Virus record (IMG/VR): IMGVR_UViG_3300048576_000441
Coordinates: 1 to 37,537 of that record
DNA from: a virus
Taxonomy: Duplodnaviria > Caudoviricetes
Direction: 5' to 3' (one strand)
DNA length: 37,537 bases
The number at the start of each line of letters is the position of its first letter. Position 1 is the stretch's first letter. Below, in pieces: positions 5,766 through 33,979 of this stretch. Position numbers and translations under genes: made by a program. The notes below the pieces were generated by a model. That model did no database searches and was not told the origin of the DNA. It worked only from the letters and a program-made list of their open reading frames with translations.

Positions 5766-5767
5766 GG

Positions 5768-7932: not shown

Positions 7933-8167
7933 CTTCTGTCTCCTTCGCCTTGATGTAGCGGCGCTCGTTCTCGGCCTGGACGTCCAGGGCGTCGTTCATG
8001 AGCGCCACGTCCTCCAACCCCAGGGTCCCATCAAGCAGACTCTCGTACTTGCAGCATCCGGCCAGCACGGGCCTGAGCAACCAGTCCTCGCCGTCCGACA
8101 GGCTGACCCACTCGACGTCTACGTCAGGGGCGCTCCGCCGGAAATCGGGGACCCTTCGCCGAAAAAA
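7919..8167 (-). CDS. Tail assembly chaperone 'T' part (C-terminal frame, probably reached by -1 frameshift)
   Basis: Open -1 frame from the slippery site at 8161-8167 to the stop at 7919, encoding EDWLLRPVLAGCCKYESLLDGTLGLEDVALMNDALDV. No convincing independent start. Confidence 0.7.
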   Translation of the reverse strand, partial: FFRRRVPDFRRSAPDVDVEWVSLSDGEDWLLRPVLAGCCKYESLLDGTLGLEDVALMNDALDVQAENERRYIKAKETEDARG

Positions 8168-8589
8168 CCGGACAGGTTGAGCCGGAGCACTTCCCACACG
8201 ATCTTCAGCATGGCCGGCATGTCGAGATCCTGGAACTGGAGCAGGTCGCCGGTCATGAGCCGTGCCCAGCCGCCGGAGTCCTGGCGGCGCTCCGTGACGG
8301 CAAGGCAGGCGTCGATGATGTAATCCACGTCGGGCTCGGGCAAGCTGGCCAGGTTGGCCAGCACGCCACCGAGCATCCCGCCGAGGTCCTTATCCGTGAG
8401 GTTGTCGAGCAGCTTGCCCGGCTCGGCCTCCGCGCCCTTGGCGGCCTCCCGCCTGAGGTTGGCCAGGACGCCGGAGTCGATGAGCCCCACGAGCAGCGGC
8501 GACAGCCGGCGCGTCACATGAAACTGCTTCTTTGCGGCGAGCTTGTTGGCCCTGTAGGTGTGGCCGCCGACCTCGAATTCGATGCTCAT
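8119..8589 (-). CDS. Tail assembly chaperone (gpG-like)
   Basis: Between the tail tube and tape measure genes. Sequence YRANKLAAKKQFHVTRRL...NLSGFF; AGGAGG RBS. Confidence 0.82.
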   Translation of the reverse strand: MSIEFEVGGHTYRANKLAAKKQFHVTRRLSPLLVGLIDSGVLANLRREAAKGAEAEPGKLLDNLTDKDLGGMLGGVLANLASLPEPDVDYIIDACLAVTERRQDSGGWARLMTGDLLQFQDLDMPAMLKIVWEVLRLNLSGFFGEGSPISGGAPLT

Positions 8590-8601
8590 GCCCGCCCCCT
8601 C

Positions 8602-9054
8602 CTAGGAGAAGATGTCGAAGATGTCGGCGCCGCCCAGCTCGGGATCCCACACGCCGCCGTCGATCTGCCACTCCACCGTGCCGCCTTCCTTGGCGTAGGT
8701 GATGGCGGGCATCTTCTTGAACGCGGCCTCGGTGATGGTGTGCAGGTCGTTGCGGGCGCTGTCGCGCACCACGAGGGTGTTCTGACCATGGCGCGCGCTC
8801 GATGCGGTCTGGAAGTTGAACATGGACACGAGCAGCGCGTTGGTCGGGCTGGTCTTGAGCAGCGTGATGGTCACGGTGCAGGCCTTGGAGACCGCAAGCG
8901 AGTGCATCACCGAGCCGTCCGCGCCGGGGGTCATGGTGTTCTTGTCGCCCACGGGCTCGATCTTGATGCCCTCGTCGGCGTTGCCGCCGATGACGAACAT
9001 GCCTCCCGGCCCCTCAAAACTGCACGAGACGTCTGCAAAGCTGTAAGCGGGCAT
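8602..9054 (-). CDS. Tail tube protein (DUF3277-like)
   Basis: 150 aa, directly after the sheath. Motifs YSFADV, MTPGADG and LLKTSPTN. Confidence 0.85.
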   Translation of the reverse strand: MPAYSFADVSCSFEGPGGMFVIGGNADEGIKIEPVGDKNTMTPGADGSVMHSLAVSKACTVTITLLKTSPTNALLVSMFNFQTASSARHGQNTLVVRDSARNDLHTITEAAFKKMPAITYAKEGGTVEWQIDGGVWDPELGGADIFDIFS

Positions 9055-9069
9055 GGTGTCCCTCCCTGC

Positions 9070-10545
9070 CTAGCGGTTGACGTTGACCGTGATGTCCACG
9101 GAGTGGATGGCCCCGGCCAGCTTGATGGCCACCTGGATGGGCGGGGCCTTGCGCGCCTCGCGATCGGCCTGGGCCTGGTCCACGATGGGTTGCGAGTAGA
9201 GGTAGTAGCCCTTGGGCAGGTAGTCGCCCTGCTGCAGGGTGCCGAAGCCGTCGCTGAACCAGGTGCCGGGCGCGATGAGGCCGTTGGCCACGCCCTGCTT
9301 CATGGCCTGGGTGATGCCGCCCATGATTTGCGTCACGCCGGCTTCGGTCTGCGGGATCTTGGTCTGGCTCTGATAGAGCACGTTGTAGCAGTTGGTCTGG
9401 ATGGCGTTCTGCAGCCAGTCGGTGCCGTGGACCTCGTCGAAGTAGGCCCCGCTGGCCACCACGCCCTGCTCGATGATGGTCGTGTCGTTGTCGTAGGTCA
9501 CAAAGACGTTGCAGTTTTTGGCCTCCAGCGCGTTGGCCTGGCTCTCGCCCAGGGCCTCCGCCGTGACCCCCGGCTCCTGCTTGAACTTGAGCGTGATGGT
9601 GGTCTTGTTGCCGTTGTAGTCCACGGAGAAGGCGCGGCCGAGAAGCGAGGCCACGGCGTAGGGGCTGGAGGAGCTGTACTGCGTGACGCTGCGCGTGTAG
9701 CTCTTGGCCTTGAGCTTGGAGGGCAGGTCGTCGGTGTAGCTGGAGGACAGCACGCGCACGTCCTGCGTGGTGAAGCCCGCCACGCGGCTCCGGCTCGTGG
9801 CCTCGATGAAGGCGGCCACATCCTCAGCCTGGCTGTCGGTGGGCATGGTGGAGGCGGCGAAGGTCAGACCGTACCACTCGGCCGATTTGTCGGCCAAAAC
9901 GGCGGCGCAGGCGGCCGGGGTTTCGGCGTCCATGCCTGCGGCGGGCGCCTCGGCCAGGGCCTGCGTCAGCCCGGCCATGGCGCTGATGTCGGCGCCGCTG
10001 GTCGGAGCCTGCGCATAGCCCAGAGTGGCGGCGGCTCCGGTGGCCGTGCTCTTGATCACGAAGCGGGTGCCGTCCCAGGTGCAGCCCGCGCCATTGGTCG
10101 CCAGCTTGGCGTCGATGACCGCGGCCACGCCGGTCATGGCCGTGACCGAGCTGAAATCCATGCTGCTGATGCTCTTGGTCACGCCGCCCACATCGAGCTT
10201 CATGGCCCCGGTGGTGACGGCCTGCCAGGCGGCGAGGTCATCCTCGGCCGTGCCGCCATGCAGGATGGCCGGAGCGGCCGTGCGGATCCAGCGGGCGATC
10301 ATGACCACCTTCGGCCGGGGCGACTGCCCGAAATAGAGATCGGCCGCCAGGTACTCGGGGGCGACCAGGCCGAACTCCGCCGCGACGGCGTCCAGGCCGG
10401 TGTAGGACCGGATGCGCTCCACGCCGTCGATGACGTCGCTGTCGCCGGCGATGCAGAGGATGCCGAACGACCTCCGGCCGGCGGCCTTGGGCGAAAGGTT
10501 GACGGTGACATTGACCGCCCGCGAAACGGAAAGAGCCTTTGCCAT
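9070..10545 (-). CDS. Contractile tail sheath protein (DUF3383-like)
   Basis: Motifs PEYLAADLYFGQSPRP, TLKFKQEPG, DEVHGTDWL and C-terminal AGAIHSVDITVNVNR. Confidence 0.9.
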   Translation of the reverse strand: MAKALSVSRAVNVTVNLSPKAAGRRSFGILCIAGDSDVIDGVERIRSYTGLDAVAAEFGLVAPEYLAADLYFGQSPRPKVVMIARWIRTAAPAILHGGTAEDDLAAWQAVTTGAMKLDVGGVTKSISSMDFSSVTAMTGVAAVIDAKLATNGAGCTWDGTRFVIKSTATGAAATLGYAQAPTSGADISAMAGLTQALAEAPAAGMDAETPAACAAVLADKSAEWYGLTFAASTMPTDSQAEDVAAFIEATSRSRVAGFTTQDVRVLSSSYTDDLPSKLKAKSYTRSVTQYSSSSPYAVASLLGRAFSVDYNGNKTTITLKFKQEPGVTAEALGESQANALEAKNCNVFVTYDNDTTIIEQGVVASGAYFDEVHGTDWLQNAIQTNCYNVLYQSQTKIPQTEAGVTQIMGGITQAMKQGVANGLIAPGTWFSDGFGTLQQGDYLPKGYYLYSQPIVDQAQADREARKAPPIQVAIKLAGAIHSVDITVNVNR

Positions 10546-10557
10546 GTTGGTCCCCTC

Positions 10558-11139
10558 CTACGTCATGGGGGTGGTTTGGACGATGAGGCCGGTGTCGGTC
10601 TCGATCGTGACGGATCCGCACTTGATGTTCCGCACGGCGTAGACGCGCCGCGCCTCGTTCCGCAGTTCGATGGGCAGGTCGACGCGCTTGACCCAGTAGC
10701 CGTTGACCAGTTCGGCCAGGCGCACCCGCCGGCCGATGCCGCCGAGAGCCAGCCCGGCCTGGCGCAGGGGCGCCCGATTTTGTTCGACCATGAGCCCGGC
10801 GCGCAGCCGTTTGGCCAGGTCGCCGGAGTTGGGACCGTAGAAGCTGGCCAGCACGTTCAACGTCTCCCAGGTGACGACCGTGTCCGCGCCGTCGCCATCG
10901 CCGCTATGGGTCACGGCCGGCCAGGAGTCGTCGTCTTCGTCCGGGACGCCCACCGCGCACCAGTCCACGGTGTGCTCCGGCTGCTTCGGCGGCTTGGGCT
11001 GCCAGCGCGGCCGGACCATCTTGCCCGGCAGGCCGGTGATGCCCGCCACCATGGCCGTGAGCACGTCCTCGAGCTGCTCCTCGGTGAGCGGCGCGGACGT
11101 GGGGGCCAGGTAGCCGGCGTGCGTGCTGTCGGTGGTCAT
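10558..11139 (-). CDS. Neck / tail terminator protein
   Basis: ATG 11139 (MTTDSTHAGYLAP...GITGLPGKMVRPRWQPKPP...DWCAVGV). Immediately upstream of the sheath. Confidence 0.75.
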   Translation of the reverse strand: MTTDSTHAGYLAPTSAPLTEEQLEDVLTAMVAGITGLPGKMVRPRWQPKPPKQPEHTVDWCAVGVPDEDDDSWPAVTHSGDGDGADTVVTWETLNVLASFYGPNSGDLAKRLRAGLMVEQNRAPLRQAGLALGGIGRRVRLAELVNGYWVKRVDLPIELRNEARRVYAVRNIKCGSVTIETDTGLIVQTTPMT

Positions 11140-11363
11140 TGCCCTGCCCTCGGGTAGGTGCAGCCCGGCCAGTCCTCGGTCTCGTCGGCGAGGCGCTTGT
11201 TCAGCTCGAACGGGCCGTAGAAATGCAGGGGCTCGGTGCACGCCGCGTCGGCCGCTTCCGGCGTGTCGAACACGCCGAGCACTTCCCACGGGCCGTTCTG
11301 GCGCCAGACGCCGGCGACGTAGACGGTCTTGACCACTTCGGCGGGAGCTTCGCTTTTGCTCAT
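11136..11363 (-). CDS. Hypothetical 75-aa protein within the neck gene cluster
   Basis: ATG 11363 with AAGGA RBS and ATGA overlaps on both sides; fills the gap exactly. Confidence 0.65.
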   Translation of the reverse strand: MSKSEAPAEVVKTVYVAGVWRQNGPWEVLGVFDTPEAADAACTEPLHFYGPFELNKRLADETEDWPGCTYPRAGQ

Positions 11364-11731
11364 ACTGCAACGTCCTTTCCCTGCATGGTGTCGCTCTGTG
11401 CGAGCACTTCGAAGAATCCGTAGTCCGACCAGTCCCACACGCCCTTGACCTGGTAGGTGCCGCCCTTCCAGGCCAGCACGTCCGGGCCGTGCGTGTCGTC
11501 GCCGGCGGTGAGCCGGGTGCCCGTGTAGACCGCGATGGTCTCGTTGGAGCGGTCGCCCTCGGGCAGACGCTGGAGCTGCTCGTCCGTGGCCGGGGCGACG
11601 ACGCCGGCGACGCTCAAAGCCGCGACGGTCTCGGTCGCGCGGCCGGTATCGCCCACGCCGACCACGGCGCGGCTGACGGTGAGCGTCTGCATCAGGTCGG
11701 GATCCCGGAGCACGTCGGACACGTCGAGCAT
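11360..11731 (-). CDS. Head closure / head-tail joining protein
   Basis: Motif LQRLPEGDR...D.L.WKG..YQV; position in the neck cluster. Confidence 0.75.
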   Translation of the reverse strand: MLDVSDVLRDPDLMQTLTVSRAVVGVGDTGRATETVAALSVAGVVAPATDEQLQRLPEGDRSNETIAVYTGTRLTAGDDTHGPDVLAWKGGTYQVKGVWDWSDYGFFEVLAQSDTMQGKDVAV

Positions 11732-12288
11732 CAGCTTGACCTCTTGCGCACCACGTAGGTGACGGCCTTGCGCAGCTGGCCGGACAGGATGAGCGGGTTG
11801 ATGGCTCCGCTCTCGCGCCGAGTCTTGCCGCGTTTCAGGATCTTGCCGTTTTCGCCGCGGACGACGCCATGCCGCTTGTTGAGCGTGGACTCGGCCAGCG
11901 GGGCCAGGTCGCCGTCCACGAACTGCGCGCGCACGCTGTTCTGGGCGATGATGCCGGCCTTCTCCAGGCAGCCGCCCACGCCGCCGACGTTGCCGGACAG
12001 CGCCGCCTCGCCCGCGGCGCGCAGCTGCTCCACGATGGGGCCGCTGGCCTTGCGGATTCCCGGCCGCAGGAACGGTCGCGCCGGGATGTTGTGCGCCGGG
12101 CTGCCGTTCTCGTGGATGAAACCGAGCTGGGCATTGGTGACGGATCCCTCTTCGCCCAGCTCGGGCGCGGCCTGGCGCTGGGCCTTATCCGCCGGGATGC
12201 CCACGAGCACCTCCTGCGAGGTGAGCGCCTTGAGCGCGGCCTCCAGCTGGCGGCTCTTGTCCACCTTCAGCTCCACGCCGGACTTCAT
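11731..12288 (-). CDS. Neck / tail completion protein (HK97 gp10-like)
   Basis: ATG 12288. Motifs VLVGIP, IHENGSPAHNIPARPFLRPG and PLILSGQLR. Confidence 0.78.
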   Translation of the reverse strand: MKSGVELKVDKSRQLEAALKALTSQEVLVGIPADKAQRQAAPELGEEGSVTNAQLGFIHENGSPAHNIPARPFLRPGIRKASGPIVEQLRAAGEAALSGNVGGVGGCLEKAGIIAQNSVRAQFVDGDLAPLAESTLNKRHGVVRGENGKILKRGKTRRESGAINPLILSGQLRKAVTYVVRKRSS

Positions 12289-12677
12289 ACGCACACCCCG
12301 CCGACGCCCACGAGCTGCATCAGGTCGAACAGCTGCTGGCCGTAGATGGTGGCGTTCCACTGCCGGCCGTTGGGGTCGGCCGTGGTGGCCTGGCTGTAAC
12401 TCTTGGACTTGCTGACGGGGCCCACGGTCTTGCTTTCGGCCGTCACCGGCCCGGCCGCGGCGCTCATGCCGCCGGTTCCGCTGGCGTCCAGGCCGGCGGC
12501 GCGCTCCAGCGTCAGGTTGTGCGCCGCAAACAAGCAGACGGCCTGATCGTACAGGGCGGCGAAGCGATCGGCCGAAAGGCGCTTGGCCCCGAGCGCGAGC
12601 CAGAAGGTCACGCGCGCGTCGGGGAAAAGCGCCTCGGTGAAGGCCGGGAAGGCCGAGCGGAAACCGGCGGCGTCCAT
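12285..12677 (-). CDS. Head-tail adaptor (DUF4054-like)
   Basis: ATG 12677. Motifs FRSAFPAF, LFAAHNL and WNATIYGQQ. Confidence 0.82.
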   Translation of the reverse strand: MDAAGFRSAFPAFTEALFPDARVTFWLALGAKRLSADRFAALYDQAVCLFAAHNLTLERAAGLDASGTGGMSAAAGPVTAESKTVGPVSKSKSYSQATTADPNGRQWNATIYGQQLFDLMQLVGVGGVCV

Positions 12678-12678
12678 G

Positions 12679-12930
12679 CTACTTACCCTTGCCCTTGGTC
12701 TTGTCCTTGGCATCCGCCGCGGGCGTATCCTTCACGGTCTCGGCTTCGTCAGCCGTGGCCTCCACGTCGGGCAGCAGCTCGGCGCGGCCATCGGCGATGC
12801 AGGCCTGGACAAACCAGTCCTCAAGCTCCGCCTGGGTCAGCGTGTGCTCGCCAACGGCGAAGTCCCTTTTCCCCGCACTCGTGCGGTCGAACCGCGCCTT
12901 AAAGGGCTTGGTGACCAGGATCCTCGGCAT
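12679..12930 (-). CDS. Small phage protein downstream of the capsid gene (STY1053-like)
   Basis: 83 aa with AAGGAG RBS. Pattern VTKPF...FAVGEH...WFVQA and a low-complexity tail. Confidence 0.65.
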   Translation of the reverse strand: MPRILVTKPFKARFDRTSAGKRDFAVGEHTLTQAELEDWFVQACIADGRAELLPDVEATADEAETVKDTPAADAKDKTKGKGK

Positions 12931-12946
12931 GTCATTCTCCTTGAAA

Positions 12947-12968
12947 GGCGGCCCCCGCAGGGGCCGCC
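12947..12968 (-). terminator. GC-rich hairpin after the major capsid gene (weak terminator or mRNA stabiliser)
   Basis: GGCGGCCCC-CGCA-GGGGCCGCC, a perfect 9-bp stem, followed on the minus strand by only TTT. Confidence 0.55.
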
Positions 12969-12987
12969 GGTTGGTTGTCGCTTGTGG

Positions 12988-13935
12988 CTAGAGGCCGTCG
13001 GCGTAGCCCACGGTCTCGGGGTAGACGAACTCCACCTCGCCCAGGCTGCCGTAGTACACGCACAGCTGGCTGATGCCGCGGTACTCCAGCGGGGTGCGCT
13101 GCAGCGGGACCATCGGGTAGCGCACGTACTGCTTATCCTTGGTGTACGCCGCCATGCGGTCCTTGCCGTTCGTGCCGCGGCCGGTCAGCCACTTGAGCGG
13201 CTGGATGTCCAGAGGTCGGCCATTGATGCGGTTGGAGAGGGAGGACTCGGCCACATACTCCAGGATGGACTTGCTGCCGGCGGTGGTAACGGGCTTGGTC
13301 AGCAGCGCGAACTTGGCCGGAGGCAGCCGCAGGTGCGTGGGGCAGGCCGCGTAGGCGGCGTTCTTCCAGGTGTCCTCAAGCAGGCCATTGATGTCATCGA
13401 GGATCATGGCCGGCGTGGTGGCCGTGTCGTCCCACTCCGAGCTGATGGGCAGGGGCGTGATGGCGGCATTGTTGACCAGGCCGGTGGCGCCCATGTCCGT
13501 GTCGCCGACGTACACCTGCTCGTCGATGTCCATGTTGTGCTTGATGCGGATGGCCTCCAGCTTCTGGGCGTCGATGGGCCTGCCCACCTGCTGCGCCTTG
13601 CTCAGCTCGATAATGGTGTAGCCCAGCTCCATGCCCCAGAGGCGCATGGGCAGCACGGTCTTGTTGATGCCGAGGGCGGGACCGGCGATGACATTGGCCT
13701 TCGGTCCGATCCAGTTCTTGCCGGTGGACTTCGCGCCGCCGGCCGCGGCCAGGAGCGTGTTGGTGAACGAGGACGATTCGTCGCTGATGCTCACGTCCTC
13801 ACGCAGCTCGATGTCGCGGTTCCAGGTGACCGAAAAGAGCGGCATGTGCAGAGTGGGATCAAGCCTTTCCAGCTCCCCCACCAGGAACGCGCCGGTGCTC
13901 GAAATCGTTTCGGCGTCGTAGGTTCTGAAAGCCAT
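12988..13935 (-). CDS. Major capsid protein (DUF2184-like, HK97 fold)
   Basis: N-terminal GAFLVGELERLDP and C-terminal GEVEFVYPETVGYADGL; AGGAG RBS. Confidence 0.9.
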   Translation of the reverse strand: MAFRTYDAETISSTGAFLVGELERLDPTLHMPLFSVTWNRDIELREDVSISDESSSFTNTLLAAAGGAKSTGKNWIGPKANVIAGPALGINKTVLPMRLWGMELGYTIIELSKAQQVGRPIDAQKLEAIRIKHNMDIDEQVYVGDTDMGATGLVNNAAITPLPISSEWDDTATTPAMILDDINGLLEDTWKNAAYAACPTHLRLPPAKFALLTKPVTTAGSKSILEYVAESSLSNRINGRPLDIQPLKWLTGRGTNGKDRMAAYTKDKQYVRYPMVPLQRTPLEYRGISQLCVYYGSLGEVEFVYPETVGYADGL

Positions 13936-13945
13936 GTCGGTGCTC

Positions 13946-14686
13946 CTAGATGTTGTAGGCCAGCTCGACGTTGCCGTCGGAGTCGGCCGGGCCGGTGAAG
14001 GTGGCGGGCAGTGCGACGTTGCCGTCGGCGGCCTTGGTCACGGTGACGGTGAAGCTGTCGCCGGCGACCATGGGGGTGCCGCCGGCGGTGATGGTGAAGG
14101 TGACGCCGCCGGCGCTGAAGGCCGTGCCGGCCGCGCCGGTGCCCATGACCAGGCCATCCGGATCCTTCACGCTGAAAGCCGTGGCGGCGGTCATGATGAC
14201 GCTGTGCGCGCCGAGCTTGGCCTTGCTGGTGACGGCGAGGGTGCCGATGGTGCCGTTGCCGGCATTGCCCGCGGTCGCGGCCCCGGCGATGGACAGCGCG
14301 CCCACGTCGGCGGCGGCCTCCAGGTCGCCCACGGCCTTGCCGGTGGCGGCGGTGATGCGCAGGTAGGCCGGCGCGCCCTTGGCCGCGGCGCCACGAGCCA
14401 GCACGGCGGAGATGTAGCCGCGGCGCAGCACGTCGCAGGCGGAGCCGCTGGGCAGCTTGCCGGCGGCGGTCAGCCCAGTGGGGCCGCCCTGGGTCGGGTA
14501 GGACCGCACCAGGAAACCGTAGAGGGTCCCGCCGGCGTAGGGGATGATCTTGCCGGCGGACATTTCCACGGCCGCGCCGAACGCACAGTCCGCGCCCAGA
14601 ATGTTGGGTTCGATGGTGCCGTCGGCCTTGCGGGTCACGTCGCCGGCGAATCCGGCCGGCATGCGGTACAGGATGGCGTTGCTCAT
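13946..14686 (-). CDS. Capsid cement / decoration protein with an inserted domain
   Basis: Between protease and capsid genes. Sequence YRMPAGFAGD...GFLVRSYP...DVLRRGY...ADSDGNVELAYNI. Confidence 0.78.
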   Translation of the reverse strand: MSNAILYRMPAGFAGDVTRKADGTIEPNILGADCAFGAAVEMSAGKIIPYAGGTLYGFLVRSYPTQGGPTGLTAAGKLPSGSACDVLRRGYISAVLARGAAAKGAPAYLRITAATGKAVGDLEAAADVGALSIAGAATAGNAGNGTIGTLAVTSKAKLGAHSVIMTAATAFSVKDPDGLVMGTGAAGTAFSAGGVTFTITAGGTPMVAGDSFTVTVTKAADGNVALPATFTGPADSDGNVELAYNI

Positions 14687-15976
14687 CTACTTGCCCCCTC
14701 TCTTGGCGTAGGCCTCGGCGTTGGCCTTGTTGATGTCCGCCGGCGTCACGGTCGCGCCGAAGTCCTTGACCGTGGCCTTGCGCAGGCCGTCGGCGGTACT
14801 CTTGTCGTTGCGGATCTTGGCCACCTCGGACGCCGCGATGAACGCCGCGTCCAGGGTGACGCAGTCGCAAGAGTCCAGGGTGGAGCCGCGCAGCGTGGCC
14901 TTAACCACGCCGGTCATGGCCTTGTCGCCCATGGCCTGGCGCAGGGCGGCGCGCTGCACGGCGCAACGCCTGTCGCCGTCCATGACGCGCAGCTTCGGGT
15001 GCAGCAGCTTGGCGCGGTCGCGCGTGTCCGTGTCCACGGTGCGCGCCGCGTCACGGGCTTTGGCCCTGGCCGCGCGGTCGCCGATCTTGGCCGGCTTTTC
15101 CTCTTCCCCGTCCGTGGCGGTCTCGGGCTCATCGTCCCCGCCGGGTCCGGCCTCAACCTCCTCATCGTCGGCTGCGGCCTGTTCGGTCTCCTCGGACTTG
15201 GCGAGCTGCCGGAGGCTGATCTTGATCTCCTCCATGCCGGCCTCCAGCGCGGCCAGGCGCTCCTCGGTGGCGTCGTCGGCCGCGGCGGCCTCGCCGCCCT
15301 CGGGCTTCTTTTCCGACTTCTTCTCCGGCTTTTCCTCGCCGGACTCGGCCAAGGCCTCGTCCAGGGCGCGGCGCGTCTTCGGGGAGCCAAGCGCGGCCAC
15401 AAGCCGGTCCAGGATGCTCTTCTTCTTGGGAGTGCTCATGTCGTCTCCGTTGTTGTCGGTGATCATGCAACGCGGGCCACAGCGGCCCCTCCGCACCAGC
15501 GCAATGTGATTGCCGCGGATGTTCCGCTGCATCCACACCCCGTCTGCCCCCCGCTCATAGTCCGCGTCATACCCGCACGAGATCTCGCGCAGGCCCCCGC
15601 GGACAAGGCCGATGGCCTCCTGATCGGTGATGAGCAGATCGGCGAGCAGCAGATCGGACTGGACTCCCGCCCCGCGCCGGACGTTCTGGGCATGGCCGAC
15701 GGCCAGCTCACGCCAGGTCACGGGGGTCACGTCCTCGTCCGGATGGTCCACGGTCGCGGGCTTGCCCTCGAACGACGCAATGGTCAGCTCGGCAAACACC
15801 TCTTCCTCGGGCCGCTCGATGATCACCGGGCCGTCGCCGTCGACCTCGAAGGGCACCTCGTCCGGGGCGTACTTTTGTGCGCCGGTGCGGGCGATGGGCA
15901 CGTCAAGGCACAGCAAATAGCCCTCGGGCGTTTCCGCCATATGCTCGGAGAGTCGGGATGCGATCTGGTAGCGCAT
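14687..15976 (-). CDS. Prohead protease-scaffold fusion (DUF2213-like)
   Basis: Motifs TPEGYLLCLDVPIARTG, SFEGKPATVDHP, EISCGYDADY and NHIALVRRGRCG, followed by an acidic scaffold-like tail. Confidence 0.9.
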   Translation of the reverse strand: MRYQIASRLSEHMAETPEGYLLCLDVPIARTGAQKYAPDEVPFEVDGDGPVIIERPEEEVFAELTIASFEGKPATVDHPDEDVTPVTWRELAVGHAQNVRRGAGVQSDLLLADLLITDQEAIGLVRGGLREISCGYDADYERGADGVWMQRNIRGNHIALVRRGRCGPRCMITDNNGDDMSTPKKKSILDRLVAALGSPKTRRALDEALAESGEEKPEKKSEKKPEGGEAAAADDATEERLAALEAGMEEIKISLRQLAKSEETEQAAADDEEVEAGPGGDDEPETATDGEEEKPAKIGDRAARAKARDAARTVDTDTRDRAKLLHPKLRVMDGDRRCAVQRAALRQAMGDKAMTGVVKATLRGSTLDSCDCVTLDAAFIAASEVAKIRNDKSTADGLRKATVKDFGATVTPADINKANAEAYAKRGGK

Positions 15977-15983
15977 GGCCCCT

Positions 15984-16030
15984 GTCGTACAGGGACCGGG
16001 GGGATGGGTCTTTTAGCGTGGGCTAAAAAT
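15984..16030 (-). promoter_or_regulatory. Putative Mor/C-activated late promoter for the head genes (analogous to Mu PI)
   Basis: Minus strand reads TTTTAGCCCACGCTAAAAGAC-18 nt-TACGAC. Near-identical dyad and spacing at 23919-23965. Confidence 0.7.
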
Positions 16031-16186
16031 GCGTGCCGTCCGGCGGGTTGGTTTCGCCGGCGCGGATGGCGTGGAGAGGGAGGAGGGAGAGGACGCTGGA
16101 GGGCGTTTAAAAACGTTCAAAAACGCCTTTTGCCGCACCGGGGTGGGGCCCAGGCTGCAGCACCCGTTGCCGGGCATCTGGCGCGT

Positions 16187-16444
16187 CTAGGAGACAGATC
16201 CGATCGCGGAAGCGACCTGGCGCAGGTCGAAGTAGCCCAGCTCGAACTTGCCGTAGTCGAGCACCTCGCCGGACGGGCCGAAAGCGGGCTCGCGCAGGGT
16301 GAACTCCACGGCGAGTCCCTTGCCGCCGCCATGCACGTCCACCACCCGGCCAACCGTGCCGGCCGGGAGCCATTCGCCGGGCGTGTCGCCGTAGCTGTAG
16401 GCGGCCAGCAGCCGGACGCTCTCTCCCTCGTGTATCGCGCTCAT
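16187..16444 (-). CDS. Putative immunity protein (DUF4926-like, SH3-like)
   Basis: 85 aa, ATGA-coupled to the MuF stop. Motif V.LL.......LPAGTVGRVVDVHGGG...VEF resembles DUF4926. Confidence 0.7.
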   Translation of the reverse strand: MSAIHEGESVRLLAAYSYGDTPGEWLPAGTVGRVVDVHGGGKGLAVEFTLREPAFGPSGEVLDYGKFELGYFDLRQVASAIGSVS

Positions 16445-17709
16445 ATGTCCACCCAGGCGGAGACGAGCCGCGGTCGCGTGCTTCTGACTCCGTTGTCCGT
16501 GTCATATATCCAGTTGGACTTCACTGGCAAGACCTGGCCGTTGAGTCCCTTGACGGGCATGACCACGCTGAACGTCTCGCCATGCTCGTTGGCCGGAACT
16601 TTCGTATGCCGCGCCGCCGGAGTTGTCGGCAGCTGATCAAGGAGCTGCCGCGCCAGATAGTCCGCGTCGGGGCCTTTGATGCCGAGCGCCGAATTCATGA
16701 CCCGCGCCTTGGGCCCACCCTTTTCATGAGCCGGGTTGAGCACGTAGGTCTCCAGCTTGCCCTTCGGGATCCAGGCGCGATCCGCATTGGGCAGCGGCTC
16801 CCGCACCAGATGCGGCACAACCTGATTGCCGGCCTGCCGTTCCCACTGGCTGCGCAGCTTGTGCTCGCCGCCGGCCTCCTCCTCCTTGCGCGTGGGCATG
16901 GGGCTGGCCACGGCCTCGCCGTCGGGCGCGGAGATCACAGGCTCGCAGTAGCAGCGGCAGTTGGGAAACTCGCCGGCGTGGCCGGTCATGCCGTCCAGAG
17001 TCGGCGGGTCGTCCCATCTGACAAACTTGCCCTCCATGGCCGCGTGGCTGGGCCTGGTATTGCCGTCGCGCGCGGTGCGCCAGATGTAGCCCTCGCTGCC
17101 CACGGCCTGTGCCCGCGCCTGCGTCAGCGCCGTGCCGGCCTTGCTCACCTCGGTGGCCGCAATGGTCTTGGCCCGGCTGGCGGTCACGCCGCCCTGCTCC
17201 TGAATTTTCGCGGCCAAGGTTTCGGCCCGCATGCCGCTGCTCAGCGCCTGCTCGGACAGCTCGCCCACGCGGGCGGCGGCGTCTGCCGGCAGGGACTTGA
17301 TGAGCGTGACGTTGGCCTCAATGCGCGCCTGCATGGCTTCGGTCACGTCAGCGTCGAGCATGCCGCGCAGGTCGATGCCCCAGCTCTCGGCCGCCTCGCG
17401 CCAGGAAACGTCGTTCTTGATAGCCACGCGGCGGACCATGTTCGCGGCGGCTTGGCGCGCCCAGGGATCCAGGGCCTCGGCATACGCCTGGAGCTGGCGC
17501 TGCGCGTGCTCCGGGGTCTTGGCGCGGGCCAGCGCCGTGGACACTTTACGGGCCACGTCCGCGAGCTGCTCAGCATACATCCGTTCGGCCGCGCGGCTGG
17601 GGCGAAAGCGCTGCCGCTGCTGTTTGACTGCGCTCACGTCCGCCCAGGCCCAGGGCCGCCGCCAGGGTTTGGCCGTCGGCTTCGGCTGCGGTGCCGGCTG
17701 CTCGTTCAC
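16441..17709 (-). CDS. MuF/SPP1 gp7-type head morphogenesis protein with a C-terminal toxin-like (DUF6883-like) domain
   Basis: GTG 17709 overlaps the portal TGA. MuF motif YIWRTARDGNTRPSH...GHAGEFPNCRC, then about 117 extra residues starting LPNADRAWIPKGKLETYVLNPAH. Confidence 0.85.
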   Translation of the reverse strand: MNEQPAPQPKPTAKPWRRPWAWADVSAVKQQRQRFRPSRAAERMYAEQLADVARKVSTALARAKTPEHAQRQLQAYAEALDPWARQAAANMVRRVAIKNDVSWREAAESWGIDLRGMLDADVTEAMQARIEANVTLIKSLPADAAARVGELSEQALSSGMRAETLAAKIQEQGGVTASRAKTIAATEVSKAGTALTQARAQAVGSEGYIWRTARDGNTRPSHAAMEGKFVRWDDPPTLDGMTGHAGEFPNCRCYCEPVISAPDGEAVASPMPTRKEEEAGGEHKLRSQWERQAGNQVVPHLVREPLPNADRAWIPKGKLETYVLNPAHEKGGPKARVMNSALGIKGPDADYLARQLLDQLPTTPAARHTKVPANEHGETFSVVMPVKGLNGQVLPVKSNWIYDTDNGVRSTRPRLVSAWVDI

Positions 17710-19313
17710 GCCGTGGCCTCGTCGGCCGGCACGGCCGGAATGAACCCGCGCCCCACGCTGCCCATGATCTGCTCGGCCTGCGCCAGGCTCACGGGGAAAG
17801 CCGCGCGCAACATCTGAATGCCGGACTCGCGCGGGAGCTGTCCGGAGGCGACCTGCGTCACGATCTCGACCATGGACGTCACCTGCGCGCCATTGAGCGA
17901 GATCTCCTGCGGCGTCGGCCCATCGCCGCCCGCCTCGCCGGGCTGCGTCCCGCCTTCGCCCAGCTCGGGCAATGTCGGCGCGGACGCCTCCGCATGGGCA
18001 CGATTGATATCCCCATCCGTGATGCCGCTCCACCGGCCCGTGATGCGGCTGGCGTCGCGCAGCTCGCCCAGGGCCTGGGCCAGGGTGATGATCCCGGCGC
18101 TGTGCAACCCGGCCACGGACTGCGCGTCTGCCGTGGCGATGGTCGACTTGTCCGTCTCCGAGGGCTGCCAAAGCGACCGGAACTCAAAACTCCAGCCCTC
18201 GGGCAGCGGCTTGCCCCAGCGGCTGCGGGCGATGATCGGCAGAAGCTTCTCGAAAACCGGCCGCAGGTCGTCGTCCTGCTGCGTAGCGATGGTGTCGTAG
18301 TATGTGCGCAAATCGGTATCGCCGGTGGAGAAGCCCTTTGGGCTTTGCCCCATCAAGCGCACCAGCGGAATGCCGGTGGCGCCGGCGATCTGCTCCGCGA
18401 AAGCCTGTATTCCATCATAGGCTCCGGCGAAGGTCCAGGAGTTGGTTTGGAACTCGTCTTCTGAGTCGAGAAGCGTGATGCCCTCGTTGGTTTGCATGAG
18501 CCTGATCATCGCGAACATTTTAAGTAGGGCCTGCTCGGGCGCACCGCCGGCGGCCAGGATCTCGCGCAGGCGTTTCACCCGGATGGTGCGCAGGTAACTG
18601 CGAAACATGAGATTGGCCGTGCCATGCGTGGCGCTGTCGAGCGCCAAAATACGGTCGTAGGCGCGCTCCACCACGGAGGCCCCCCACTGCAGCTCGGTGA
18701 TGCGCTGGTAGTACGGCAGCTCCACGCCGATCAAGCGGACGCAGCGACTGTGGTGCACGCGCAGACCGACCTCGTCGTTGCCGGTGTTAACGTCGTAGCT
18801 CACCGGATAGCCGAGCATGGGCCCCAACTCGTCAATCGTTTCGGACGACGGCACCACCTGCCAGCGGTCGAGCACATGCAAACCGCGGAAGCTGTCCCGG
18901 CGCACGTCCTCCACGTCAAGCGGCTGCGACACGTCGTCGCCCTGGATGAGGATGACGGCCAGCGCGCCGCCGTACAGCCTGGCCCACTTCACCGCGTCGC
19001 ACAGCCGGCCGTAGACGCCCATCCGGCGGATATAGCGGTGCAGCTCATCGATGTCGCCGGGCGGCAGCTGCGCCTGGATGTCGATGCCGCCGCGCAGCAT
19101 GTCCTCGGCCACCACGTCCACCATGCGGCCCACGACCCAGGAGTCGCGGTAGGCGGCCTCCAGCAGCGAGCGTTGCCGAGTGATCTGGCTGCCGATCGTG
19201 TAGCTGCCCTTGGCGAGTTGGTTGTTCTGGCCCAGGCCGAGTCCGGCCAGGAAGTTCTCGAAGCCGTCTGTCATCCGCGCGTCAGTGGTGCGGTGATTTC
19301 TGCGTCTACCCAT
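17706..19313 (-). CDS. Portal protein (DUF1073-like)
   Basis: Follows TerL. Motifs YRDSWVVGRMVDVVAEDM, WARLYGG, GIPLVRLMGQSPKGFSTG and YYDTI. Confidence 0.88.
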   Translation of the reverse strand: MGRRRNHRTTDARMTDGFENFLAGLGLGQNNQLAKGSYTIGSQITRQRSLLEAAYRDSWVVGRMVDVVAEDMLRGGIDIQAQLPPGDIDELHRYIRRMGVYGRLCDAVKWARLYGGALAVILIQGDDVSQPLDVEDVRRDSFRGLHVLDRWQVVPSSETIDELGPMLGYPVSYDVNTGNDEVGLRVHHSRCVRLIGVELPYYQRITELQWGASVVERAYDRILALDSATHGTANLMFRSYLRTIRVKRLREILAAGGAPEQALLKMFAMIRLMQTNEGITLLDSEDEFQTNSWTFAGAYDGIQAFAEQIAGATGIPLVRLMGQSPKGFSTGDTDLRTYYDTIATQQDDDLRPVFEKLLPIIARSRWGKPLPEGWSFEFRSLWQPSETDKSTIATADAQSVAGLHSAGIITLAQALGELRDASRITGRWSGITDGDINRAHAEASAPTLPELGEGGTQPGEAGGDGPTPQEISLNGAQVTSMVEIVTQVASGQLPRESGIQMLRAAFPVSLAQAEQIMGSVGRGFIPAVPADEATA

Positions 19314-20763
19314 TGGCCAGAGCCTCCCAAATGCTCAGGCCGTGCGCCTTCAGATAGCGCAGGCCCTGTGTCATGGCGTCGACCTGATCGTCGTGGCCGC
19401 TCGCGGGGAAGCTCAGCAGCTCCTCCACGAAGTCACGGGCCCAGGTGCATTCCTCTTCGTCGGGGATGAACACGTTGCCCGCGGCCCAGAGCGCCGTCAC
19501 GGCGTGCGCGCGCGAGACCTTGGAGCCGTCGGGCAGTATCGGCGTGAGGCCCGGCACGTCCTCGCGCAGGGCGTCCAGTACGGCCGGACCGTTGGCCTTG
19601 TCCTCGATGAGCACGGCCGTGGCCGCCGGAAACATGTTGGTCAGCAGCTGCACGGAATCCTTGGACGCAGTGAAGCCCATGCGCGCGCGCACCTGGTGCA
19701 ACAGGTAGTAGCGCACGCCGGCGCGGCCCCAGATCTGCCCGACCACGAAATCCGTGCCGTCGGTGCCCTTGAAGGTCATGTCCCAGCTCTGGATGATCTC
19801 GTTGAAGAACTCGGGCAGGGTGGAGCGCCGCCAGCGCTTGATCCAGGCGGCCTGAAAAATGTTGCCGCCCTCCTGCACCGGGGACTGCTGGTACAGGGCG
19901 CTCCATTTGGCCGGGTTCATGGCCGCGCGGATCTCCAGGAGCTGCTCCAGCGGGTGCAGCTCCGGGACGAGGGCCAGGCCGTTTTCGTCGATGGCCTTGA
20001 ACTTCAGGACGCGGGCGCGCGAGTTGGTCTTGGCGATGGTCCCGGCCAGGTCGTCCACGGCCCAGGACGTGGCCATGATAATCTGCCCGGACTTCTTGGA
20101 CAGGCGGGTGAGGAAGACCGTCTCGTACCAGTTGAGGATGGCCGCCTTGACCGTGGCCGAGCGCGCCTCCTCCTCGTTTTTAATGGGGTCGTCGATGAGC
20201 CCCACGTCCAGGCTCTTGCCCGTGAGCGGGCCGCCCACGCCGGCGCAGACGTAGTAGCCGCGATGGTGGAGGATGTCGAAGCGGTCGCTGTTGCGCAGCG
20301 CCTGCCCCTCCATGGTGACGACCCGCTTCGGGTTCAAAGCCGAATCCGGGTAGGCGGCGCGGTACTGCTCGTCCATCATGATGCGTTGGACATCGCGGTT
20401 CATTTGCTGGGCCAGGTCCGCGCCGTAGCTGCATGCGCCGATGCGCAGCTCGGGATGGCGGCCGAAGAGATAGGGCGGGAAACGGCGCGACACCAGTTCG
20501 GACTTGCCGTGCTGCGGCGGGGCCTGGAGGATGAGCACCGGCCGCTTGCCGGCGATGACGTCGGCCAGGAACTGATCCAGCTCACGGCAGACTTCAAGGG
20601 AAAATGGGTTGTGGCAATAGTCCGGCTTGGTGAACGAGACGAAGGCCGCCATGCTCCGCCGGGCGCGTTCGGCCTGCAGGACGCGCAGCTCCTTTTCGGC
20701 AAGCAGGCTGTCCAGTTCGGTGCGGGCGGCCGGCGGGTCGGCTTTGGCGGCCTTGCGGGACAT
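19306..20763 (-). CDS. terL: Terminase large subunit
   Basis: Walker A PPQHGKS, Walker B LIDDP, nuclease acidic motifs SWD, IEDKANG and HDDQVDA. Confidence 0.93.
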   Translation of the reverse strand: MSRKAAKADPPAARTELDSLLAEKELRVLQAERARRSMAAFVSFTKPDYCHNPFSLEVCRELDQFLADVIAGKRPVLILQAPPQHGKSELVSRRFPPYLFGRHPELRIGACSYGADLAQQMNRDVQRIMMDEQYRAAYPDSALNPKRVVTMEGQALRNSDRFDILHHRGYYVCAGVGGPLTGKSLDVGLIDDPIKNEEEARSATVKAAILNWYETVFLTRLSKKSGQIIMATSWAVDDLAGTIAKTNSRARVLKFKAIDENGLALVPELHPLEQLLEIRAAMNPAKWSALYQQSPVQEGGNIFQAAWIKRWRRSTLPEFFNEIIQSWDMTFKGTDGTDFVVGQIWGRAGVRYYLLHQVRARMGFTASKDSVQLLTNMFPAATAVLIEDKANGPAVLDALREDVPGLTPILPDGSKVSRAHAVTALWAAGNVFIPDEEECTWARDFVEELLSFPASGHDDQVDAMTQGLRYLKAHGLSIWEALANG

Positions 20764-20765
20764 GA

Positions 20766-21308
20766 TTAAGCCTCGACCGCCAGCGCGGCGATGCGTGCCT
20801 CAAGCTCCTCGTCGCTCAAGGCCTTCAAGTCCTGCGCGCTGCCCAGGCTTTCGATCTTGGCGTTCATCTCCTCACGCAGCTCGCGCCTGGCCGCCTCGCG
20901 CGCCTCGGCCGCAAACCGCTTCTGCGTCACGGCCGCGCGCGCAAGGTCCGCGATGGATTTGGTGATCTTGTCGAGGTGTAAAGTCTCGACTTTCACGTCG
21001 AGATCCACGAGCACGCCGAACAACTTTTCCTGCACCAGCCGCATGAGCGCCTCGTTGGTCGCCCCCTCGCGGTCCGGCGAGGCCTCCACCACGGCTCTGG
21101 CCTGCTCCGTGGCCAGCTTGAGCGAGGCTAGGCGCGTCTCGAACGCCGCCCCATATCGCTGGATGGAGGACTTGGAGATGTTATAGCCGCGCGCGCGCAG
21201 CTCCTCCTCAAGCAGCCGGTAGCGCTGGAAGCCGCCTTCGGCCAGAGCCTTGTCGAGCCACGCCTTGACGTCGCGCGGCAGCGACTGCACCGCGGATCTC
21301 TTGGTCAT
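20766..21308 (-). CDS. Mu gp27-like (DUF3486) small terminase
   Basis: Motif KRSAVQSLP...WL...ISKSSIQRYG. Located between a gp26-like gene and TerL. Confidence 0.8.
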   Translation of the reverse strand: MTKRSAVQSLPRDVKAWLDKALAEGGFQRYRLLEEELRARGYNISKSSIQRYGAAFETRLASLKLATEQARAVVEASPDREGATNEALMRLVQEKLFGVLVDLDVKVETLHLDKITKSIADLARAAVTQKRFAAEAREAARRELREEMNAKIESLGSAQDLKALSDEELEARIAALAVEA

Positions 21309-24046: not shown

Positions 24047-24568
24047 CTACCAGGGCTCGGCATGAGCCCGATGCCGCTCCCAGTCTTCGCTGTAAAGGCG
24101 GGCCAGGTCGGGCGAATCAATAATCACCAAGTTCTCGGCGTTACTGTTCTCGGCGGCGGCGGTGAAATTGAAGCTCCCCGTTGACACAGTCCGGCCATCA
24201 AAAACCATGATCTTGTTGTGCGCGATGGCGTGGCGTGCGTCGATGTAGACCGTGCCGCCGCAGCTCGCCAGCGTCTGCCCCTGGCCTCCACGTGCTGCCC
24301 GCTGCGAGCGGTCCAGGACTGCCTCGACATGCACGCCGCGCGCCACGGCCCGGCATAGTGCTTCAACCACGGGGCGGGATGTGAAGCTGTAGGCCAGGAC
24401 GGCTATATCTCGACGGGCTGCGTCAATGCGTCGCACCAGAGATTCCGTCGCCCCGCCATGCGGCGAAAAGTAGACCTCCACCGGCGCGTCATGCAGAATG
24501 AGGTCCGCAGATAACGCTTGGCACGGCAGGCATAGGACCAGAAGAATAAAAAAACAATGCGCTCGCAT
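24047..24568 (-). CDS. Secreted phospholipase D-family (Nuc-like) endonuclease
   Basis: Single HKD motif HNKIMVFD followed by GSFNFT and NAENL; signal peptide MRAHCFFILLVLCLPCQALSA. Confidence 0.88.
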   Translation of the reverse strand: MRAHCFFILLVLCLPCQALSADLILHDAPVEVYFSPHGGATESLVRRIDAARRDIAVLAYSFTSRPVVEALCRAVARGVHVEAVLDRSQRAARGGQGQTLASCGGTVYIDARHAIAHNKIMVFDGRTVSTGSFNFTAAAENSNAENLVIIDSPDLARLYSEDWERHRAHAEPW

Positions 24569-25243
24569 CTACTTCTCGTCCGGCACAATGATGCACTGGT
24601 CAAGCTGTGGGAATGTCAAACTGGCCCCCGCGCCGAGGCACATAACCCCGACCTCCCGTCCGGGCTGCAGATCCCCGGCGATTTCCTCCACCGAGGCGGC
24701 TGAAAAGCTCTCGCGCTTAAGACTGCGAGGTTGGACCTCAAAAAGGTGCGCCTGCACCTGGGCGATGCCGTAACCGTCGGCGGCAAGCGTCAAGTAGGGC
24801 TTGTCGGTGATGCCCTTGGCCACCGAGGCCAGCTTGCCACTGACGCCGACCCACTTGCCTTTGTACTTGGCGTCTGCGCGCACCTCATTGGTTTTGTACT
24901 CCCGGTAGAGCTGCACGGCCGTGCACTCGGCGTCCAGGCCGTTGGCCTTGGCTTCCTTCCACTGCCGCTCTAGGCGAACGCGAAGCTTTTCCTTCTGGCT
25001 TGCAGCCTGTCGATCTGCTTTGTCCTGGGCGACCTGCGCCTCCGTCTTGCCCGGCTGATTGCCGCCGCGGGAGCCAAGCGCGCCGAGGACGACAAGCACG
25101 GCCACGGCGATGAGCACCCACTGCACCTTGGTCAACTTCTTTTTCGGCGGCTTGGCGTCCGGCATGGGCTTGCCGCACTTGGGACAGGACGGCGCGGCGT
25201 CTGACACTTGGGATTTACAGTCTGGGCACTCACGCAAAGCCAT
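24569..25243 (-). CDS. Zinc-ribbon + TM + OB-fold (tRNA_anti-like) membrane protein
   Basis: ATG 25243 with AAGGAGG RBS. CPDC...CPKC ribbon, one TM helix, and LYREYKTNEVRADAKYKGKWVGVSG. Confidence 0.75.
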   Translation of the reverse strand: MALRECPDCKSQVSDAAPSCPKCGKPMPDAKPPKKKLTKVQWVLIAVAVLVVLGALGSRGGNQPGKTEAQVAQDKADRQAASQKEKLRVRLERQWKEAKANGLDAECTAVQLYREYKTNEVRADAKYKGKWVGVSGKLASVAKGITDKPYLTLAADGYGIAQVQAHLFEVQPRSLKRESFSAASVEEIAGDLQPGREVGVMCLGAGASLTFPQLDQCIIVPDEK

Positions 25244-25295
25244 ACGTCCTCCTTGTGTCTTCGCGCCTCGCGGCACAACCAGTTGACCTAACAGC

Positions 25296-25728: not shown

Positions 25729-25956
25729 ATGATGTTGCGGACCTCCAGGGATGTTCGAGATGAGTTCCAGCGCAAGGGCGTTTCGGTCGCCGCTTGGGCC
25801 AGGGCCAACGGGTTCGAGACCAACTTGGTCTTCGAAGTCCTCTCCGGTCGCAAGAAGGGGGTGCGCGGCCAGAGCCACAAGATCGCCGTCAAGCTGGGCC
25901 TCAAGGCGGGCGAAATCGTCGAGGATTGCGACATCGCCACAGCCATCAACCAATAG
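25729..25956 (+). CDS. Ner/Cro-like DNA-binding protein (BcepMu gp16 family-like)
   Basis: Motif GVSVAAWARANGF...RGQSHKIAVKLGLK; first early gene. Confidence 0.85.
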   Translation: MMLRTSRDVRDEFQRKGVSVAAWARANGFETNLVFEVLSGRKKGVRGQSHKIAVKLGLKAGEIVEDCDIATAINQ

Positions 25957-26013
25957 GCCCGGTCATGCGGTCTTGTGTTGAACATCCTTTAACCCAGCCT
26001 GCGGGGGCCTGCA

Positions 26014-26463: not shown

Positions 26464-26472
26464 GAGTTGAAC

Positions 26473-26778: not shown

Positions 26779-26794
26779 CCCCAAGGAGAGACTC

Positions 26795-31013: not shown

Positions 31014-31032
31014 CCCCGCAAAGGAGATCGCC

Positions 31033-31221: not shown

Positions 31222-31232
31222 GGAGGCCCAAC

Positions 31233-31829: not shown

Positions 31830-31859
31830 ACCGGGAACCCGAAACGCAGGAGAGCAACC

Positions 31860-32441: not shown

Positions 32442-32450
32442 GGGGCGGAC

Positions 32451-33008: not shown

Positions 33009-33009
33009 C

Positions 33010-33073: not shown

Positions 33074-33093
33074 CAACCGACAGGGAGGCGAAC

Positions 33094-33977: not shown

Positions 33978-33979
33978 GC

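What the first reader, a model, noticed from the sequence alone, without database searches (positions are those of the whole stretch)
16187..17709. Candidate virion-borne polymorphic toxin-immunity system: MuF fused to a DUF6883-like domain plus a DUF4926-like gene
Seen: after the complete MuF motif (NCRCYCEPV) and a linker comes a ~117-aa domain (16441-16794: LPNADRAWIPKGKLETYVLNPAHEKGGPKARV...EHGETF...GLNG......WIYD......PRLVSAWV) in visibly less GC-rich DNA. An 85-aa gene is ATGA-coupled to it, and the pair sits just before the head promoter. Established: MuF proteins of temperate phages can carry variable C-terminal toxins with a downstream immunity gene. From memory, this domain pattern (KL..Y.LNP.H..G..KA) also occurs at the tip of haemagglutinin/Rhs-type proteins and next to DUF4926 genes. 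Inference: an uncharacterised, probably nuclease-type toxin packaged in the head and injected with the DNA, with its cognate antidote. I know of no characterised example in a transposable phage.
Basis: partly seen in the sequence, partly recalled or inferred. Interest (0 to 1): 0.85.

Follow-up and report, generated by a model that had tools for sequence, protein, structure and literature searches.

The report
Phage head protein carrying tRNase toxin
A transposable prophage encodes a head protein (MuF) fused to a predicted tRNA-cutting toxin domain and followed by a small gene that likely encodes its antidote; this gene arrangement was already described in a 2026 preprint, but near-identical related phages are seen here to swap the toxin-antidote cassette while keeping the old antidote gene, which would suit phage-against-phage rivalry.

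Summary
Observation confirmed. 16441-17709(-) encodes a 422-aa MuF protein with a C-terminal DUF6883 (58 bits, cut-off 27); 16187-16444(-) is an ATGA-coupled 85-aa DUF4926-like gene (below cut-off). The prophage has Mu-type transposition genes. The architecture is in print: Pham et al. 2026 (bioRxiv) class DUF6883 as BECR-Tox3, a colicin-like RNase fused to MuF and followed by DUF4926, with no experiment on it in the text I read. Added here: the tip model matches the CDI tRNase CdiA-CT Kp342 (Z 10.4, rmsd 2.5), and its Lys-Tyr-Arg-Ser residues appear in register with that active site. The co-fold scored 0.64 against a best control of 0.00 and covers that site. The small gene occurs in 40 of 41 tip-bearing loci and 0 of 125 others. 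Gut phages about 98% identical carry different tip+partner cassettes, one keeping the other's partner as an orphan. Most close MuFs keep DUF6883, so variation is mainly allelic. Toxicity, substrate and packaging are untested. The scan index held no DUF6883 finding. New member of a known kind.

The parts
16930..17709 (-). MuF1 (SPP1 gp7 / Mu gpF type) minor head protein, residues 1-260 of the 422-aa ORF; predicted portal-associated carrier
   Evidence: PF04233 77.5 bits; TIGR01641 58.8 bits above cut-off 39.65; PHROG 324; directly after the portal gene 17706-19313
16807..16929 (-). About 41-aa linker conserved in the clade; the swap point lies at its C-terminal end
   Evidence: shared by both gut alleles (83% identical) and partly by a papain-tip protein P0124
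16441..16806 (-). DUF6883 / BECR-Tox3 tip (residues 302-422), colicin-D-like BECR fold; predicted active site K318, Y322, K334, R414, S417
   Evidence: PF21814 58.4 bits; model pLDDT 94; VIA Z 10.4 to 6CP9_A; conservation
16187..16444 (-). 85-aa acidic SH3/KOW-like beta-barrel, DUF4926-like, translationally coupled; likely cognate immunity protein
   Evidence: leave-out profile 48.9 bits; co-fold 0.64 vs best control 0.00
15977..16186 (-). Non-coding spacer before the DUF2213 head protease gene with two dyads (about 16102-16127 and 16011-16028) that recur in relatives; possible late promoter, untested

Best explanation
The gene encodes a MuF head protein fused to a DUF6883 (BECR-Tox3) domain that is predicted to be a tRNA-cutting RNase, and the coupled 85-aa gene likely encodes the immunity protein that plugs its active site. 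Steps: (1) shown: both genes lie in the packaging operon, translationally coupled; (2) inferred: the acidic barrel binds the basic active-site face as the fusion is made during lytic growth, sparing the producing cell; (3) inferred from SPP1 gp7 and 80alpha gp44: a few MuF copies ride at the portal and enter the next cell with the DNA; (4) inferred from CdiA-CT Kp342/EC3006: the tip, freed of its partner, cuts a host tRNA (acceptor stem in those enzymes) and slows translation in a cell that lacks the matching antidote; (5) shown in relatives: tip+partner cassettes are exchanged on an unchanged MuF and an older partner gene can be kept. Likely purpose: to handicap non-immune cells and rival kin phages. 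Confidence: about 0.85 for RNase plus cognate inhibitor, about 0.6 for tRNA as substrate, about 0.55 for delivery by the virion.
For: Family: DUF6883 above cut-off; placed in the colicin-like BECR RNases by Pham et al.. Same domain is the extreme C-terminus of 139 of 140 fully matched representatives and sits on Rhs (6), PT-TG (3), eCIS-core (2), LXG, DUF637 haemagglutinin and Hcp carriers among 71 proteins scanned. Fold: best solved matches are CDI tRNases Kp342 (Z 10.4, rmsd 2.5, 103 aligned) and EC3006 (Z 8.0, rmsd 3.5, 95 aligned), next unrelated row Z 6.5. End registers put K318 on K157/K204, Y322 on Y208, R414 on R252 and S417 on T255/T330, the published active-site residues (PMC9086364). 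K318 117/121 and 148/149, Y322 121/121 and 148/149, K334 120/121 and 148/149, position 417 T/S/N 121/121 and 147/149. Partner family in 40 of 41 tip loci and 0 of 125 tip-less loci. Tip basic and partner acidic in 19 of 19. Co-fold score 0.64, best of 3 controls 0.00; mark reached by 116 of 157 solved complexes and 2 of 215 mismatched pairs (counts hold only roughly with own alignments); runs agree in at least 85% of contacts, partner pLDDT at least 79; interface includes Y322, K334, S417. Cassette swap with orphan partner. Characterised MuF toxins Apk2 and Bxa are toxic in E. coli and blocked by downstream proteins.
Against: No toxicity, binding or substrate data. Foldseek gave no match at E <= 0.001 (best 3.6e-3) and identity to the tRNases is 12-21%, so the substrate cannot be read off. 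The residue mapping rests on the first and last aligned residues only, assuming no gaps near the ends. His328 is variable (62 of 121) and R414 is often Glu outside the clade (R 68, E 49 of 149). The small protein is below the DUF4926 cut-off. No internal sigma-70 promoter for the partner was found, so a lysogen may not be immune, and a potent tRNase would hinder the incoming phage, which must translate its transposase (own knowledge of Mu). Presence in virions is inferred from other phages only. The tip is DUF6883 in 106 of the 120 best MuF-core hits, less variable than a classical polymorphic toxin.
Confidence: 0.6

Rival explanations
1. The tip is an injected, low-dose anti-defence or take-over RNase (target crRNA, another defence RNA or mRNA, or a transient translation pause that steers lysis versus lysogeny); the small protein only keeps it off during virion assembly.
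For: Iyer et al. propose mRNA or CRISPR RNA targets for MuF-fused PBECR domains because phages need host tRNA; Jamet et al. propose a lysogeny-decision role for weak MuF toxins. Near-fixation of one domain family in the clade (106 of 120) suits a standing phage function.
Against: The same domain serves on Rhs, LXG, Hcp and haemagglutinin antibacterial carriers; its nearest solved folds are tRNases; allele swapping with a retained orphan partner fits conflict between carriers of different alleles.
Confidence: 0.22
2. The pair acts inside the lysogen or producer only (addiction, abortive infection against other phages, or a toxin released at lysis); the tip is removed or stays inhibited in the particle.
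For: Bxa, a MuF fusion, acts as a lysogen fitness factor. A conserved linker could be a cleavage point. No virion data.
Against: Genes are coupled to the portal gene inside the packaging operon, no internal promoter seen; fusion to MuF is kept in the whole clade.
Confidence: 0.13
3. The tip is a non-toxic nucleic-acid-binding extension like the predicted inactive PBECR domain of Mu gp30, and the SH3/KOW-like protein is a structural or assembly partner.
For: Mu gp30 precedent; partner fold resembles NusG-KOW and other SH3 barrels with no immunity protein among the 50 rows listed; a co-fold pass fits any binding partner.
Against: Predicted catalytic Lys/Tyr/Ser-Thr are kept; partner covers them; tip and partner diverge to 41% and 29% on a 100% identical MuF core.
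Confidence: 0.05

Closest known systems
BECR-Tox3 / DUF6883 with DUF4926 (Pham et al., bioRxiv 10.64898/2026.08.28.747851; section 10 read whole, abstract and passages)
   Same: Same domain, same downstream partner family, same MuF fusion, same toxin-immunity proposal.
   Different: The text I read gives no experiment, substrate, complex model or allele-swap data for BECR-Tox3 and does not mention transposable phages there; its supplement (Table S1 of active-site residues) could not be seen and may already list these residues.
MuF polymorphic toxins (Jamet et al. 2017, PMC5576092, Results part 1 and Discussion read; Apk2 PMC12226406 and Bxa PMC11699363, passages)
   Same: MuF1 after the portal gene, C-terminal toxin domain, small downstream ORF, temperate phage.
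   Different: Characterised members are (p)ppApp synthetases and an ADP-ribosyltransferase; named toxins were enriched in Firmicutes; here a predicted RNase in a transposable phage whose named relatives are mostly Desulfovibrionaceae.
CdiA-CT Kp342 (6CP9) and EC3006 (6CP8), tRNA-Ile(GAU) tRNases (review PMC9086364, passages)
   Same: BECR fold (Z 10.4 and 8.0) and apparent Lys-Tyr-Thr/Ser plus Arg active site.
   Different: 12-21% identity; delivered by CDI; their immunity proteins were not among the fold matches of the 85-aa protein; catalytic His not clearly matched.
Phage Mu gp30 with MuF-C / PBECR domain (Iyer et al. 2017, PMC5512222, passages)
   Same: MuF plus C-terminal BECR domain in a transposable phage.
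   Different: Mu's domain is described as inactive and PBECR active sites use a His in the first helix; here DUF6883 with Lys/Tyr and a coupled partner gene; head and tail genes are E217/Pam3-like, not Mu-like.

Membership tests
MuF polymorphic toxin | N-terminal MuF domain encoded right after the portal gene | tested here: met
   PF04233 and TIGR01641 above cut-off; portal 17706-19313 overlaps its start
MuF polymorphic toxin | C-terminal domain shared with other polymorphic toxin carriers | tested here: met
   Rhs, LXG, PT-TG, DUF637, Hcp, eCIS-core carriers among 71 proteins
MuF polymorphic toxin | Small downstream ORF under 150 aa tied to the tip | tested here: met
   39 of 41 tip loci vs 8 of 115 short MuF loci have a coupled 60-110 aa ORF; family profile 40 of 41 vs 0 of 125
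MuF polymorphic toxin | Variable tip on a conserved carrier | tested here: met
   Allele swap between phages about 98% identical; 2 of 120 best core hits carry a papain-fold Gln_amidase tip and 6 are short MuFs; mostly allelic
MuF polymorphic toxin | Temperate phage | tested here: met
   Repressor-like HTH, Mu-type transposase; host nifS at the right edge; protein recorded on a 225-kb contig
MuF polymorphic toxin | Toxicity neutralised by the partner; presence in virions | not testable with these tools
   Only a co-fold prediction
DUF6883 / BECR-Tox3 | Profile match above the curated cut-off | tested here: met
   PF21814 58.4 bits vs 27; the BECR-Tox3 profile itself was not available
Colicin-like BECR RNase | Pre-alpha helix plus BECR core with active-site residues on the pre-helix and last strand | tested here: met
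   Helices 17-22, 31-41, 45-61 then four strands; K318/Y322 on first helix, S417 on last strand; Z 10.4 to 6CP9
Colicin-like BECR RNase | Conserved catalytic histidine (frequent, not universal) | tested here: inconclusive
   H328 present here but only 62 of 121 in the clade and 128 of 149 in representatives
Colicin-like BECR RNase | tRNA cleavage | not testable with these tools
   Inferred from structural neighbours
DUF4926 | Profile match above the curated cut-off | tested here: not met
   19.1 vs 29.1 bits. Of 8 positional orthologues scanned, 6 hit the profile and 1 passes the cut-off, so it is a DUF4926-like relative rather than a formal member

The most novel reading that the evidence does not exclude
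A clade of transposable prophages of sulfate-reducing bacteria, gut ones included, loads an allele-specific tRNase into its virions and uses it for kin discrimination: particles poison cells or co-infecting relatives that lack the matching antidote, and phages collect orphan antidote genes from displaced alleles, as CDI and T6SS loci do. The allele pair L096/L099 would make the open question of what MuF toxins are for directly testable.
Probability: 0.3. Interest if true: 0.7.

Novelty: new member of a known kind. Interest (0 to 1): 0.38.

Why it matters
The biological role of MuF toxins is still stated as unknown (PMC11699363) and their delivery by virions is a hypothesis (PMC5576092). This locus gives a concrete RNase candidate with named residues and a partner predicted to cover the active site, for a family (about 3,900 clusters at 50% identity) with no solved structure found by sequence. 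The natural pair of near-identical phages with different cassettes and an orphan partner allows a clean specificity and competition test. The class and the architecture themselves are already published, which limits the surprise.

Tried and rejected
Sequence searches of the PDB with the tip, the tip profile and the partner profile gave nothing significant. Foldseek gave no E <= 0.001 match for either model. The partner's fold matches are generic SH3/KOW barrels, best Z 8.6 (rmsd 1.2, 55 aligned) to the N-terminal domain of Hpy99I; no immunity protein was listed, which excludes nothing. PHROGs had no family for tip or partner, NCBIfam none for the partner. tblastn of two tips against 50,697 GenBank phage records found no match; the nearest MuFs there are at most about 45% identical. 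No sequencing run was listed, so expression is open. No sigma-70 promoter or terminator in 15900-17000. His328 rejected as the key residue. Low GC rejected as strong evidence of recent transfer in this copy, although tip GC3 is below core GC3 in 19 of 21 relatives. L105 has breaks in both tip and partner in a low-coverage contig and was treated as likely assembly error. Similarity test: partner tracks tip after removing the core (partial r 0.58, p 0.0002) but also tracks the core (0.49, p 0.0014), 19 loci with L086 and L162 left out; kinship confounds it, so it is not counted as proof of co-evolution. Selection on the orphan could not be judged: 7 synonymous and 6 non-synonymous differences over three copies. 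Paper searches: 'DUF6883' 1 paper, 'DUF4926' 3; MuF + transposable phage terms found no paper on a MuF toxin in such a phage in the listing; 'orphan immunity' + 'MuF' gave 3 papers, one checked was a false hit on a software name and two were seen as listings only.

Full report
Observation. On the minus strand a 422-aa ORF runs 17709-16441 from a GTG that overlaps the portal stop. Pfam finds Phage_Mu_F at 149-254 (77.5 bits) and DUF6883 at 306-420 (58.4 bits, cut-off 27). An 85-aa ORF, 16444-16187, overlaps its stop as ATGA and touches DUF4926 at 19.1 bits, under the 29.1 cut-off. The GC dip is modest: 62.4% against 70.8%, with 5.8% of equal windows in the late region as low; the small gene is not GC-poor.

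Context. The element is a transposable prophage: transposase and transposition ATPase, GemA, Mor, HU and a Mu gp27-type small terminase, a host nifS gene at the right edge. Its head and tail genes are of the DUF1073-portal, DUF2213-protease, E217/Pam3 type rather than Mu's. Four of six related virus records tested carry a Mu-type transposase; the two without are 29-31% complete (the profile also rings in 6 of 14 control genomes, but the hits here are near full length at E <= 5e-85). Named homologues are mostly Desulfovibrionaceae, so that host group is likely.

What the tip is. A profile of 21 clade tips finds 3,922 clusters at E <= 0.001. Of the 150 listed, I scanned 71 of the 72 that are 300 aa or longer: all pass the DUF6883 cut-off, and carriers include Rhs (6), MuF (4), PT-TG (3), eCIS-core (2), DUF6861 (2), LXG, DUF637 haemagglutinin and Hcp. 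The domain ends within 15 residues of the C-terminus in 139 of 140 full matches. The AlphaFold2 model (pLDDT 94) has as best solved matches the CDI tRNases Kp342 (Z 10.4, rmsd 2.5, 103 aligned) and EC3006 (Z 8.0, rmsd 3.5, 95 aligned); the next unrelated row is 6.5 and many further rows are BECR toxins. Foldseek ranks the same two entries first but only at E 3.6e-3. The aligned ranges (model 10-121 on 150-260; 8-121 on 195-335) place K318 on K157/K204, Y322 on Y208, R414 on R252 and S417 on T255/T330 if the ends are ungapped; these are the active-site residues listed in PMC9086364 (passages). K318, Y322, K334 and W400 are almost invariant in 121 clade tips and 149 representatives; position 417 is Thr, Ser or Asn; H328 is His in only 62 of 121, and R414 is often Glu outside the clade. 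All are intact in the window's copy. So an RNase is likely, a tRNase is the best guess, and the isoacceptor cannot be predicted.

What the small gene is. Among 166 loci fetched (redundant; one is this locus itself; 25 distinct tip ends), 41 have the tip. 39 of these have a coupled 60-110 aa ORF, against 8 of 115 short MuFs. A profile from 20 partners hits 40 of 41 tip loci and 0 of 125 others; the positives are partly circular, but a profile without the window and its nearest relative still scores the window's protein at 48.9 bits. The exception, L162, has an unrelated 111-aa gene with no Pfam or NCBIfam match. Six of 8 orthologues scanned hit DUF4926 and one passes the cut-off. The model is an SH3/KOW-like barrel. 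Tips are basic and partners acidic in 19 of 19 loci. The co-fold scored 0.64 against a best control of 0.00; that mark was reached by 116 of 157 solved complexes and 2 of 215 mismatched pairs, roughly applicable here; runs agree in at least 85% of contacts and partner pLDDT is at least 79. The interface includes Y322, K334 and S417. No like complex was found in the PDB by sequence, so the pass is less likely to be from memory, but it does not show binding.

Is it polymorphic? A search scored on the MuF part alone gave DUF6883 in 106 of the 120 best hits (the query included), a papain-fold glutamine-amidase tip in 2, short MuFs in 6, and partial or frameshifted forms in 6. Replacement by another family is therefore rare. 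Allelic change is fast: MuF cores 74-83% identical to ours carry tips 39-45% identical (L003, L004, L086). The clearest case is a human-gut phage pair. L093/L096/L098/L008 and L094/L099/L100 are 97-99% identical on both flanks and differ only by the tip and partner, which are 41% and 29% identical. The second type keeps the first type's partner gene intact, with a ribosome-binding-like motif upstream, behind its own, in 3 of 3 copies. Cassette exchange with an orphan immunity gene is the hallmark of polymorphic toxin loci; a neutral left-over of recombination is not excluded.

Mechanism. Most likely the fusion is made late, held inactive by the coupled barrel, packaged at the portal in a few copies as SPP1 gp7 is (PMC5576092 Discussion) and ejected as 80alpha gp44 is (PMC7290940, abstract), then cuts a host tRNA. 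The weak step is purpose: a Mu-type phage must translate its transposase after entry (own knowledge), and no internal promoter for the partner was found, so a strong tRNase would hurt the incoming phage. A mild or transient effect, an anti-defence target (PMC5512222) or action in the lysogen remain real rivals.

What is known. Pham et al. (bioRxiv 10.64898/2026.08.28.747851; abstract, section 10 whole, passages) state that DUF6883 is BECR-Tox3 of the colicin-like group, is commonly followed by DUF4926 and is frequently fused to Phage_Mu_F. In what I read only BECR-Tox2 was tested. Their supplement was not visible and may hold the active-site residues. MuF toxins as a class were defined by Jamet et al. 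(Results part 1 and Discussion read); Apk2 and Bxa are characterised members (passages). Mu gp30 itself has a C-terminal PBECR domain described as inactive. I found no paper on an active MuF toxin in a transposable phage, or on orphan immunity genes shown at MuF loci, in searches, although PMC11699363 speculates that such extra genes exist. The scan's own index had no finding with DUF6883.

Verdict. Real and correctly read, but a new member of a described kind. The additions are the tRNase-like active-site mapping, the complex model and the allele swap with an orphan partner. Interest 0.38.

Noticed in passing
L094 3907-4719 (also L099, L100) against L093/L096/L098/L008: Near-identical gut phages differ by the tip+partner cassette; the second type retains the first type's partner gene as an intact orphan.
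   Followed up: yes
L162 892-1227: A DUF6883 tip followed by an unrelated 111-aa acidic protein with no Pfam or NCBIfam match: a possible second immunity family for this toxin.
   Followed up: partly
proteins P0124, P0133: Same MuF clade with a papain-fold glutamine-amidase (PF15644) tip; P0124 keeps the clade linker up to the swap point.
   Followed up: partly
window 15977-16186: Spacer before the head protease gene holds two dyads that recur at similar spacing in most related loci; candidate Mor-activated late promoter.
   Followed up: partly
window 1667-21308 and 25729-36187: Hybrid genome: Mu-type transposition and regulation genes joined to an E217/Pam3-like contractile-tail head and tail module; at least four related records share a Mu-type transposase.
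   Followed up: partly
window 24047-25276 (-): Two accessory genes beside the repressor: a PLD-family nuclease (NucT/DrmC-like, below cut-offs) and a zinc-ribbon plus tRNA_anti-like protein; possible lysogen-expressed morons.
   Followed up: no
window 36329-37537 (-): Host cysteine desulfurase nifS included at the right edge; short repeats at about 36230-36270 may mark the prophage end.
   Followed up: no
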